A stretch of 64,000 nucleotides of DNA from NCBI RefSeq assembly GCF_024298765.1, contig NZ_CP101210.1; one strand, written 5' to 3'. The DNA is from Escherichia coli. GTDB taxonomy: Bacteria > Pseudomonadota > Gammaproteobacteria > Enterobacterales > Enterobacteriaceae. Position 1 is the stretch's first letter; each line of letters begins with the position of its first letter. The position numbers were made by a program. Positions 58,601 to 61,600 of this stretch are shown here, piece after piece.

Positions 58601-61600
58601 AAACATGCCATGATATGGCACCAACGCCAACAACAAACCGGTGAGAAGAGAAAGTGCCAACGCGGCAAGGGTGATCTGATTTGCAGACACTTGCCGCTTA
58701 TGAAGCCAAAACATCGTCGGCCTTAACAGTGACTGAAAGAGCGGTTTTATCTGGTAGAGCGTCATTATCAATCCTTGATAATTCTGTTTGCGCTATGGTG
58801 CATCAATTGCCCTGGCAGAGATATCGCAACACGCCGCTTCATTAAAAATTCAGAATATATCAAGGTATTGGGGCTCACTGTCAGGAATGATTATCCCCAA
58901 TTAATCAAATAGTTAAAAATATTACGCTGTTATTCAATGCAACTCATCAAGTTTTCTCATCGCTTGTTCCCGTATTGCGCGCGTCTTACCGTTAAGCGCC
59001 AGCTGGCGGACTAAATCCAGTTCAGGGTTAACAAGCTCTAACGCCAGCAAAGGATCACGTTTCAGCCTCGCCTTTAATACATCAACTGGAAAACGGGGAT
59101 TATTCATCGCCACAATCCACCACTCGGGATCAATTTCTGCCGCCAGTACTGCAGGCGGTGTGTGGCGGTTGTTAAGTGCGCCGAACTTGAAAAATGTGAG
59201 ATTGCTTTTCGCCAGTGTACTCCACCATATACGATCCGGTTGTTTTGCCAGTACATCCAGTTGTGCTAACGCATCGGGTTCTAGTGCATAATAAACACGT
59301 AACGCTTCGTTAACCTGCGCACGGGAACTGTTTTCCTGCCTCAGAAAAAACTTCGCCCAAATATCATTTCGTGGCGTGTTTTGCTGTAATTCCTTTAAGC
59401 CTTGGGAGAGTTCGCATTATGGCAAGATCAAATGTCGCAATGTCTCGTCCTTCAAATGCAGCAACGTTGCCTTCATCCAGCATTTGCAATTCCTGCAATA
59501 ATTCAGGAGAAGACTTAGGGCGAAACAGCGCTTCTTTTTTCATCTGATTACAGACATTCCCTGCTATGCGAATATTGCTTCGCTTAAAAATTTCTTTCAG
59601 AGCATCTTCATCATTTATTAGGCCCCAATAATATGCATCAGGATTTATTATCATCAGCGCTTTTTTGACATTTTCAGTGTCATTTTTGTCACTCGCACGG
59701 ACCATGAATTCACTATTTGTCGAAGATGCAACAACAGGTGCAATTATGTCATTGATAAATATCCCGCGCGCATTAATACTTCCCTTAATCGTAGACGGAT
59801 TATCGTAATATGAGTCGATAAATACCAGTCCACTTGCATTTATCGAACCGGTAATTAACAGTGGTGAATCCGTAACTATATTCGTTGCCGTTACGTTACG
59901 TTACGTTACGTTACGTTACGTTACGTTACGTTACCGAGAATAACCCATGGATTAGAAAGAGAGAAAGTGGAAATATTACCTTTGACTGTCAAATTGCCAA
60001 GAACAATCAATTTTTGATTACTCTCTATATTACCTTCTACCATTAAATCGCCACGATGCACTTTCCAGTCCGATGCAGATAAACCGACGGGGACAAGATT
60101 CACGCTACTGTTGATAGCTTGTTCAACTTGTTGTTTATCTTCAGCGGTAGCCGCAGAAAAAAATGGTTCAATATCAACTGCATTTACAACACATCGAAGT
60201 TCCGCCTGTACTGGAAGACTCAGCATAAACAGGGGAAGTAAACCTATCCAGCTGCAAATCCTGGGCTTAAACATATGCACTCCATGCCATTAAAAAAGAA
60301 TAAATATCCTCCGGCATAGCCGGAGGTTTTTCAAATGCGCCTATAAGGCTCTCTTACCAGCCGCGCCCTAACAGGCGCACACGATCTGACATTTGCATCC
60401 AACTTCGTTACTTACGGCCCGTAAACGGGCTGCCCGGATAGGGAATCGATAACTGCTCTCCCATTTTATCCTCTTCAAGCTGGTGCTTTATGTAATCCTG
60501 TATCTTCGCCGTGTTCTTACCCACCGTATCGACGTAGTACCCTCTGCACCAGAACTCTCTGTTCCTGTATTTGAATTTCAAATCACCAAACTGCTCGTAA
60601 AGCATCAGACTGCTTTTCCCTTTCAGATATCCCATAAAGCCGGATACACTCATTTTGGGCGGGATCTCCACAAGCATATGGATATGATCTGCACAGCATT
60701 CAGCTTCAAGAATCCGTACGCTTTTCCACTCACACAGCTTTCTCAAAATACTGCCTATTGCTCTACGCTTCTCTCTGTAGAACACTTGTCTTCGGTATTT
60801 TGGCGCAAAAACTATGTGATATTTACAGTTCCATCGGGTGTGCGCTAAGCTCTTTTCGTTCCCCATTGGGACCCCCTTTTGATTTCTTGTTTGACACTTG
60901 CAGTTGCCAGACCGCAAGGTGTTTTAACAAATCAAAAGGGGTTTTAATAACTGGCTCAAAGCTGAAAGCTTTCCGGAACCCCCAGCCTAGCTGGGGGTTT
61001 TCTGTGCACAAACAAAAGGGAAATGCATCTTTCCCTTTTGTATATTCGTTATTCTCGCGAAATACCGTCCAACGTAGACAACACTTCCTCAGAAAGATGC
61101 AATTTTTCAGCAGCCATATTCTCCCGTAAATGCGCAACAGAAGACGTCCCTGGGATCAGCAAAATATTCGGTGAACGCTGTAACAGCCACGCCAGCGCCA
61201 CCTGCATTGGTGTTGCGCCCAGGCTCGCTGCTACATCCGAAAGTGTGGAGGATTGCAGCGGCGTAAAGCCCCCAAGCGGAAAGAACGGCACGTAGGCAAT
61301 GCCGTCACGAGCCAAAGCATCAATCATTGCGTCATCAGCACGATGAGCAATGTTGTATTCGTTCTGCACACAGACGATTTCGGTAATCTTACGCGCCTCT
61401 GCAACCTGCGTCGGTGTAACGTTGCTCAGACCAATATGTTTTACCAGGCCTTGTTGTTGCATCTCTGCCAGTACGGTCAGGCTGGCTTCAATCGATCCTT
61501 CCGCTGGGCCATGACCATCCCCCATCATAACGCGCAGGTTAACCACATCCAGTGCGCCCAGCCCGAGATTACGTAGATTATCGTGCACCGCTTTTTGCAG

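What the first reader, a model, noticed from the sequence alone, without database searches (positions are those of the whole stretch)
59889..59933. (CGTTA)9 pentanucleotide microsatellite that places stops in every frame of the ydbD-like gene
Nine perfect tandem 5-nt units is unusual for E. coli. On the coding (minus) strand the unit is TAACG, which gives TAA in all three frames within any 15-nt span, so a tract this long cannot be read through in any frame. The N-terminal ORF of the ydbD-like gene (signal peptide, GNVT/GSIN repeat-rich, adhesin-like) ends exactly in the tract, and a continuous frame resumes just downstream. This looks like a repeat expansion that inactivated the gene; if the tract contracts to one or two units it could act as a slipped-strand on/off switch.
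Basis: seen in the sequence. Interest (0 to 1): 0.6.

Follow-up and report, generated by a model that had tools for sequence, protein, structure and literature searches.

The report
Hypervariable 5-base repeat in dead ydbD
A perfect nine-copy 5-base repeat sits in an already broken E. coli gene (ydbD); it varies from 4 to 21 copies among 75 related, largely poultry-associated genomes, so it is a fast-mutating neutral microsatellite, unusual for E. coli and useful as a strain marker, not a genetic on/off switch.

Summary
(CGTTA)9 lies at 59889-59933 and is perfect. On the coding (minus) strand it puts TAA in all three frames. The N-terminal ORF of ydbD stops inside it, and the native frame reopens right after it.

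Copy number varies widely: 75 of 5,426 complete E. coli genomes carry an expanded tract, with 4 to 21 perfect copies. Five genomes with 0 SNPs across about 19.5 kb of flanking DNA carry 8, 9, 13, 19 and 21 copies.

It cannot be a switch, for three reasons:
- Every length of 3 or more copies gives the same in-frame stop (…GNVT*).
- No genome has the only length that could be "on" (two perfect units).
- All 18 carriers I read share a 1001-bp frameshifting deletion 513 nt downstream. Exactly 75 genomes carry that junction.

The ST117 subclade, including the window, also has an IS200C 26 nt upstream of the start codon. The other 3,833 genomes with an unexpanded site have an interrupted 10-nt version (GTAACGTGACG) in the 12 records listed, annotated as ydbD without a pseudogene flag.

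Best reading: a lineage-specific microsatellite that arose once, in a phylogroup G/ST117 lineage where ydbD is a pseudogene, and changes by replication slippage. It is a new member of a known kind, of moderate interest.

The parts
59889..59933 (-). (CGTTA)9 on the + strand, (GTAAC/TAACG)9 on the coding strand: a perfect pentanucleotide microsatellite inserted at codons G114-T117 of ydbD
   Evidence: Orthologous site in other genomes: 4 to 21 copies in 75 genomes; GTAACGTGACG in K-12-like and O157 genomes.
58934..60274 (-). ydbD pseudogene (1341 nt; the intact gene is 2307 nt)
   Evidence: +35 nt at nt 341 and -1001 nt from nt 845 relative to the O157 gene. PGAP flags the orthologous feature 'frameshifted; internal stop' in the carrier genomes.
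59921..60274 (-). N-terminal remnant ORF (hydrophobic, signal-peptide-like N-terminus plus the start of the weak bactofilin-like region), ending ...LGNVT + TAA inside the tract
   Evidence: compared with intact YdbD. The signal peptide is read by eye, not tested.
59364..59888 (-). Native ydbD frame, open from the first base after the tract, running across the deletion junction into out-of-frame sequence and a stop
   Evidence: translation; matches YdbD residues 118 onward.
59388..59395 (.). Junction of the 1001-bp internal deletion: microhomology AATTCCTT within the imperfect direct repeat GCTG(T/A)AATTCCTT
   Evidence: The same junction lies 513 nt from the tract in 17 of the 18 carriers read (512 in L005). 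75 genomes carry it.
58934..59113 (-). C-terminal DUF2773 remnant of ydbD (native frame, 59 aa)
   Evidence: ORF; Pfam DUF2773 at residues 688-768 of intact YdbD; alignment.
60301..61009 (-). IS200C insertion (tnpA about 60408-60866), 26 nt upstream of the ydbD start codon, between ydbD and pdxI (ydbC)
   Evidence: boundaries against APEC O2-211, which lacks it; annotations. Absent from L004, L008, L009, L011, L014, L018.

Best explanation
This is a lineage-specific, hypermutable pentanucleotide microsatellite (a VNTR) inside a gene that is dead. It has no effect on coding capacity.

Ancestrally the site reads GGT AAC GTG ACG (G N V T), which is two imperfect units. In one lineage the second unit became GTAAC (GTG to GTA, a synonymous change), giving two perfect units, and the array then expanded. 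This order of steps is inferred.

Copy number now changes by replication slippage in 5-nt steps. Two things probably help, both inferred. First, 5-nt loops are beyond the size that E. coli MutS recognises. Second, each unit contains the self-complementary ACGT, so slipped-out strands can fold into hairpins.

Every length of 3 or more gives the same stop, and the gene also carries an irreversible 1001-bp frameshifting deletion (plus an IS200C upstream in the ST117 subclade). Length variation is therefore selectively neutral and accumulates freely. The lineage is ST117 and its relatives, probably phylogroup G.
For: Shown directly:
- The tract is perfect and bounded by identical flanks in the window, in 17 fetched genomes and in one metagenome contig, with n = 4 to 21.
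- Population survey with a flank+(CGTTA)40+flank probe, where record span = 200+5n: 75 of 5,426 genomes are expanded. Approximate counts are 21:2, 19:1, 18:2, 15:1, 14:2, 13:1, 12:5, 11:6, 10:15, 9:16, 8:7, 7:about 9, 6:about 5, 5:1, 4:1. The distribution is unimodal with no period-3 pattern.
- Speed: five genomes with 0 SNPs over about 19.5 kb of flank carry 8, 9, 13, 19 and 21 copies. L004 and L018 have 0 SNPs between them and carry 4 and 7. Eleven ST117-like genomes have 12 variable sites in 19,488 bp but 11 different tract lengths.
- Age: carrier lineages that differ by 116-367 SNPs per roughly 20 kb of alignment all share the tract and the identical deletion junction.
- Not an assembly artefact: strain pairs that appear to be the same or a derived isolate (by name or identical record length) agree. 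E166 twice gives n=9, 2020N21-246 and 2020N21-246-1 give n=7, and GPEC1165 and GPEC1185 give n=21.
- Outside the lineage, all 60 sampled rows of 3,847 matching genomes span exactly 10 nt at the site. None of 3,833 has the perfect two-unit allele.
- No coding consequence: the native frame reads LGNVT* for n = 3, 4 and 9. The gene carries a -1001 nt deletion in exactly 75 genomes.

From the literature:
- MutS handles insertions and deletions of up to four nucleotides (PMC8235422).
- K-12 has no pentanucleotide repeats (PMC7015867).
- APEC O2-211 is ST117 (PMC6256689), and ST117 is in phylogroup G (PMC12452172).

Hairpin potential is -11.3 and -11.7 kcal/mol for the two 45-nt strands and -33.6 kcal/mol for the 21-unit allele.
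Against: - Slippage and escape from mismatch repair are inferred. No mutation rate or within-culture heterogeneity was measured.
- The hairpin energies do not differ from dinucleotide-preserving shuffles (z = +0.4 to -0.85). That control is weak for a simple repeat, so hairpin involvement is unproven.
- No intermediate alleles were found (two or three perfect units, or an expansion without the deletion). The order of the G-to-A change, the expansion and the deletion is therefore unknown, and the 'birth' pathway is a reconstruction.
- Neutrality is argued from the coding logic and the shape of the length distribution, not tested.
- That the 75 genomes with the tract and the 75 with the junction are the same set is inferred from equal counts, 18 of 18 carriers read, and 2 of 2 listed junction hits. 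It was not checked genome by genome.
- Ten of the 3,932 records that matched the probe fall in neither class and were not inspected.
- Assigning the non-ST117 carriers to phylogroup G is an inference.
Confidence: 0.85

Rival explanations
1. Contingency locus: slippage in the tract switches YdbD expression on and off.
For: The tract is in the coding region and close to the 5' end, and its length is highly variable between close relatives, as in phase-variable genes of Haemophilus and Neisseria (literature).
Against: The unit carries TAA, so every n of 3 or more gives the same stop in the native frame and stops in the other two. The only 'on' length, two perfect units, occurs in 0 of 3,833 unexpanded genomes, and the smallest allele in carriers is 4. 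The gene also has a 1001-bp frameshifting deletion in every carrier read. The length distribution has no period-3 structure.
Confidence: 0.02
2. The expansion was the primary event that killed an intact ydbD; the 1001-bp deletion and the IS200C insertion are later decay.
For: A 2-to-3-unit slip is sufficient to truncate the protein at residue 117. IS200C is clearly late, because it is absent from six carrier lineages. ydbD is dispensable: about 1,500 of 5,426 genomes gave no match at the locus, and a few others carry pseudogene-like annotations.
Against: No genome shows an expansion without the deletion. The counts are 75 and 75, and the junction is present in 18 of 18 carriers. The opposite order, deletion first and then neutral expansion, needs the same number of events and needs no null mutation to become fixed in a working gene.
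Confidence: 0.35
3. The tract is under selection for something other than coding. For example, it might set transcriptional polarity or termination ahead of the downstream ynbABCD operon, or silence a harmful truncated secreted YdbD fragment made after the deletion.
For: The array has stayed perfect and at 4 or more copies in lineages up to about 1.9% diverged in the flanks. It lies upstream of, and on the same strand as, ynbA-D.
Against: Purity is expected when slippage is far faster than point mutation. Lengths spread over 4 to 21 with no preferred value beyond a broad mode. The stop position is the same for every n of 3 or more. No test of expression was possible.
Confidence: 0.05
4. Sequencing or assembly artefact: repeat lengths mis-called in long-read assemblies.
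For: Tandem repeats can be mis-assembled. One carrier (L005) has a 1-nt difference in the distance from junction to tract.
Against: All 18 tracts are perfect multiples of 5 with identical flanks. Strain pairs that appear to be the same or a derived isolate give the same n. An unrelated metagenome contig also carries the tract, with n=11.
Confidence: 0.02

Closest known systems
Bacterial microsatellites / VNTR loci used for MLVA typing (for example the E. coli O157 VNTR loci cited in PMC7015867)
   Same: Perfect short tandem units, conserved flanks, copy number differing between near-identical genomes, and change by slippage. Discriminatory power is high (Simpson index about 0.88, my arithmetic from the approximate counts).
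   Different: The unit is 5 nt. From memory, the published E. coli MLVA loci use units of 6 nt or longer; I did not check this. K-12 has no pentanucleotide repeat (PMC7015867). The locus exists only in about 1.4% of complete genomes, in one lineage, and lies in a pseudogene. I found no paper describing it.
Simple-sequence contingency loci (tetra- and pentanucleotide repeats in Haemophilus, Neisseria and Moraxella surface or restriction-modification genes; PMC2651432 and others)
   Same: An intragenic repeat near the 5' end whose length changes rapidly. Repeat units of 4 nt or more are thought to escape mismatch repair.
   Different: Contingency repeats lack stop codons in at least one frame, so some lengths are 'on'. 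This unit contains TAA, so no length of 3 or more can be read. The rest of the gene is destroyed, and no 'on' allele exists in the population.
Microsatellite birth from a proto-repeat after a point mutation (described mainly in eukaryotes; compare PMC2940325 and PMC12469459, listed)
   Same: Two adjacent imperfect units (GTAAC GTGAC) in the ancestor, a single substitution that makes them identical in the derived lineage, then expansion beyond a threshold.
   Different: This is in a bacterium with very few long microsatellites. The intermediate states (2 or 3 perfect units) were not found, so the path is inferred.

Membership tests
Microsatellite / VNTR (hypervariable simple tandem repeat) | Head-to-tail perfect units of 1-6 nt | tested here: met
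   4 to 21 perfect CGTTA units, with no interruptions in any of the 18 copies read.
Microsatellite / VNTR (hypervariable simple tandem repeat) | Length polymorphism in whole units at an orthologous site with conserved flanks | tested here: met
   15 different lengths in 75 genomes; the immediate flanks shown are identical.
Microsatellite / VNTR (hypervariable simple tandem repeat) | Changes much faster than the surrounding sequence | tested here: met
   0 SNPs in about 19.5 kb with n = 8, 9, 13, 19, 21; 12 variable sites against 11 alleles in the ST117-like clade.
Microsatellite / VNTR (hypervariable simple tandem repeat) | Measurable slippage within a culture (mutation rate) | not testable with these tools
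   Needs reads or fluctuation assays. Strain pairs that appear to be the same or a derived isolate gave identical n, so the rate is not extreme.
Simple-sequence contingency (phase-variable) gene | Some repeat numbers restore an open reading frame (an ON state exists) | tested here: not met
   the native frame gives LGNVT* for n = 3, 4 and 9, with TAA in all frames. Only exactly two units can be read.
Simple-sequence contingency (phase-variable) gene | ON and OFF alleles both occur in the population | tested here: not met
   0 of 3,833 unexpanded genomes have two perfect units; the minimum in carriers is 4.
Simple-sequence contingency (phase-variable) gene | The rest of the gene is intact | tested here: not met
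   a 1001-bp frameshifting deletion in every carrier read. The IS200C upstream is in the ST117 subclade.
Pseudogene of ydbD (DUF2773 / bactofilin-like protein) | Orthology to intact ydbD by synteny and sequence | tested here: met
   the pieces align at 96-98% identity, between ynbA and pdxI. Pfam DUF2773 is found on the intact orthologue.
Pseudogene of ydbD (DUF2773 / bactofilin-like protein) | Disabling lesions | tested here: met
   (+35 nt with stops, -1001 nt). PGAP notes 'frameshifted; internal stop' in 16 of the 17 fetched carrier genomes and 'frameshifted' in the other.
Published E. coli MLVA/VNTR loci | Same locus as an already described typing marker | tested here: inconclusive
   Full-text searches for ydbD + tandem repeat (0 papers) and ST117 + VNTR (nothing relevant by title or abstract). 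Subscription-only literature was not searched.

The most novel reading that the evidence does not exclude
This may be the first natural long pentanucleotide microsatellite described in E. coli. It arose from a two-unit proto-repeat in a gene that is now a pseudogene. It has stayed perfect and at 4 or more copies across all carrier lineages, and it expands to at least 21 copies.

If so, the near-absence of long microsatellites in E. coli would reflect selection on coding sequence rather than an inability to generate them. The locus would then serve as a natural reporter of slippage that mismatch repair cannot see, and as a high-resolution typing marker for the ST117 poultry and extraintestinal lineage.
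Probability: 0.4. Interest if true: 0.45.

Novelty: new member of a known kind. Interest (0 to 1): 0.35.

Why it matters
E. coli is a textbook example of a genome almost free of long microsatellites. This locus shows a 5-nt repeat reaching 21 copies and changing faster than 20 kb of surrounding DNA accumulates SNPs, in a gene that is not functional.

That is a natural illustration of the idea that selection against frameshifts, not mutational incapacity, limits repeat growth in bacterial coding DNA.

In practice, the locus is a single-PCR marker with about 15 alleles for ST117 and its relatives. ST117 is an avian pathogenic lineage (PMC6256689), and many carriers here come from poultry while others come from humans. 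The marker can separate isolates that are identical over 20 kb.

It also warns against reading every intragenic repeat as a phase-variation switch.

Tried and rejected
- **Phase-variation switch:** rejected on frame logic, the absence of any 'on' allele and the second lesion.
- **Unexpanded perfect two-unit allele:** I searched with a 210-nt construct (best identity 99.5%) and a 70-nt construct (0 records at 99% or above). None found.
- **Metagenome scan** for left flank plus two or more perfect units: one contig only (n=11, same deletion). No new intermediate states.
- **Scan of one genome per species** for (CGTTA)6: 7 unrelated hits (Moorena, Paenibacillus, Brachyspira and MAGs). Useful only as a measure of rarity.
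- **Hairpin folding**: imperfect hairpins form, but the shuffle control cannot distinguish them (z about 0), so this stays a suggestion.
- **Literature:** searches for ydbD + tandem repeat, ST117 + VNTR, and ydbD alone turned up nothing on this locus or on a defined YdbD function.
- **'Adhesin-like':** not supported by Pfam.
- **Opposite-strand ORF** 59885..60046 (53 aa, 'MPLRYVTLRYVT...'): treated as a by-product of the repeat and not pursued.
- **Not attempted:** dating the lesions by substitution patterns (too few sites) or MLST/phylogroup typing of the non-ST117 carriers (the marker genes are outside the fetched loci).

Full report
**1. The observation**

The window has nine perfect CGTTA units at 59889-59933, followed by a C. 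TRF reports period 5, 9.2 copies and 100% matches. No other array in the 64 kb exceeds 3.2 copies.

On the minus strand the sequence reads CTC GGT AAC GTA ACG TAA. The 119-aa ORF 59921..60280 therefore ends ...LGNVT-stop inside the tract. TAA recurs in all three frames.

Directly after the tract, the minus strand is open for 174 codons, beginning ATNIVTDSPLLITGSINASG. This is the sequence that follows GNVT in intact YdbD.

**2. The gene**

The region matches ydbD, which lies between ynbA and pdxI (ydbC). RefSeq annotates the intact gene as 'DUF2773 domain-containing bactofilin'; it is 2307 nt and 768 aa.

Pfam on the intact K-12-like protein finds DUF2773 at residues 688-768 (E 2.3e-45) and only a weak bactofilin match at 78-138 (E 0.05). 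The N-terminus is hydrophobic and looks like a signal peptide. 'Adhesin-like' is not supported.

Aligned with the intact O157 gene, the window copy has two structural differences:
- +35 nt at nt 341, which is the tract (nine units in place of two).
- -1001 nt starting at nt 845.

The deletion joins two copies of an imperfect direct repeat, GCTG(T/A)AATTCCTT. The shared AATTCCTT lies at window 59388-59395.

In addition, a 709-bp IS200C (60301-61009) sits 26 nt upstream of the start codon. PGAP flags the orthologous feature as a pseudogene in all 17 carrier genomes fetched: 'frameshifted; internal stop' in 16 and 'frameshifted' in one.

**3. The ancestral site**

K-12-like and O157 genomes read GTAACGTGACG at this position, which is GGT AAC GTG ACG (G N V T). 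The window lineage has GTA in place of GTG. That is a synonymous change which makes the two adjacent units identical. All units in the expanded arrays are GTAAC.

**4. Population survey**

I searched the 5,426 complete E. coli genomes with a probe of 100-nt flank + (CGTTA)40 + 100-nt flank. The span of each match gives the copy number (span = 200 + 5n).

- The 60 best records had n = 21, 21, 19, 18, 18, 15, 14, 14, 13, then 12 (5 records), 11 (6), 10 (15), 9 (16), 8 (7) and 7.
- With an E-value limit that excludes two-unit sites, exactly 75 genomes remain. The lowest-ranked have 7, 6, 5 and 4 copies. The distribution is unimodal, with a mode of 9-10 and a tail to 21, and shows no period of three.
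- A probe across the deletion junction is covered in one piece in exactly 75 genomes.
- A two-unit construct matched 3,847 other genomes, and all 60 sampled rows had a span of exactly 210 nt. The best identity was 99.5%.
- With a 70-nt version, 0 of 3,833 genomes reached 99%. The perfect two-unit allele therefore does not exist in this collection.
- One metagenome contig carries the tract, with n=11 and the same junction.
- Six or more copies of this unit occur in only 7 stretches across one genome from each of 100,044 species.

**5. Rate and age**

I fetched 16 carriers with 10-kb flanks on each side. All tracts are perfect and the immediate flanks are identical. Across these 16, GPEC464 and the metagenome contig, the deletion junction lies 513 nt from the tract in 17 of the 18 carriers and 512 nt in one.

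Flank SNP distances:
- Five genomes with 0 differences over about 19.5 kb carry 8, 9, 13, 19 and 21 copies.
- Two others with 0 differences between them carry 4 and 7.
- The window is identical to strain D10 over the shared part of the alignment but has 9 copies against D10's 12.

In the tight clade of 11 genomes there are 12 variable sites in 19,488 bp but 11 different tract lengths. This one locus has therefore changed at least about as often as all roughly 20,000 flanking sites together.

Strain pairs that appear to be the same or a derived isolate agree in copy number. The lengths are therefore real and stable in the short term.

Carrier lineages that differ by 116-367 SNPs per roughly 20 kb of alignment all share the tract and the junction. 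Both lesions are therefore old. IS200C is confined to part of the tight clade and is late.

APEC O2-211 belongs to that clade and is ST117 (PMC6256689). ST117 is in phylogroup G (PMC12452172). That the more divergent carriers are other phylogroup G lineages is my inference.

**6. Mechanism**

What is shown:
- The length changes in whole units, and fast.
- It has no effect on the reading of the gene, because every n of 3 or more gives LGNVT-stop.
- The gene is destroyed downstream regardless.

What is inferred:
- The changes arise by replication slippage.
- They escape methyl-directed mismatch repair, because E. coli MutS handles insertions and deletions only up to four nucleotides (PMC8235422).
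- The self-complementary ACGT core lets slipped strands form hairpins of four pairs and one mismatch per unit. Predicted energies are -11.3 and -11.7 kcal/mol for the 45-nt strands and -33.6 kcal/mol for 21 units. The shuffle control is uninformative for a simple repeat, so this point is only suggestive.

The order of the G-to-A change, the expansion and the deletion is unresolved, because no intermediate genome was found.

**7. Comparison with known systems**

The tract behaves like a neutral microsatellite or VNTR and meets the tests for that class that I could run. It fails three defining features of a simple-sequence contingency gene: no readable repeat number of 3 or more, no 'on' allele in the population, and no intact gene.

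It is unusual for E. coli. A review of the K-12 repeat survey reports no pentanucleotide repeats and a maximum of four copies for tetranucleotides (PMC7015867). I found no paper describing this locus, although subscription-only literature was not searchable.

**8. Verdict**

It is a new member of a known kind. Its interest is moderate: a rare natural long microsatellite in E. coli, an illustration of repeat growth where coding constraint is absent, and a potential typing marker for ST117.

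Noticed in passing
window 60301-61009: A 709-bp IS200C copy lies 26 nt upstream of the ydbD start codon. It is present in only part of the ST117-like clade (absent from APEC O2-211 and from the five divergent carrier lineages), so it is a recent third lesion and a second lineage marker at this locus.
   Followed up: partly
window 59388-59395 (junction): A 1001-bp internal ydbD deletion between imperfect 13-nt direct repeats. Exactly 75 of 5,426 complete genomes carry it, the same number as carry the expanded repeat.
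   Followed up: yes
window about 62140-63071: paaY is followed by a short paaX remnant fused to the C-terminal remnant of an AraC-type regulator (feaR-like). In the K-12 map, as I recall it, the rest of the paa/tynA/feaB cluster lies between these two genes, so it appears to be deleted here. All fetched carrier genomes share this arrangement. The ydbA autotransporter found next to pdxI in the K-12-like and O157 genomes is also absent.
   Followed up: no
window 34006-34068: An intergenic stretch between two minus-strand ORFs holds two adjacent perfect duplications, 21 bp x2 (GACATAGTCAATGCCGAAAAA) and 15 bp x2 (TGCCGAAAAAGGGGC). Their origin and function are unknown.
   Followed up: no
L004, L011, L014, L018 (locus about 4397-5689): ynbD, the last gene of the ynbABCD operon downstream of ydbD, is annotated as a pseudogene (internal stop or frameshift) in four non-ST117 carrier lineages but is intact in the ST117 clade.
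   Followed up: no
L005 (13P477T), between locus 9589 and 10101: The distance from deletion junction to tract is 512 nt instead of 513. This is a 1-nt indel in the pseudogene or an assembly error.
   Followed up: no
annotation column: For this pseudogene, PGAP's product name changes with repeat number: 'DUF2773 domain-containing protein' for n of 10 or more and '...bactofilin' for n of 9 or fewer, with one exception (n=7). This is presumably a side effect of how well the best-hit alignment survives the insertion.
   Followed up: no
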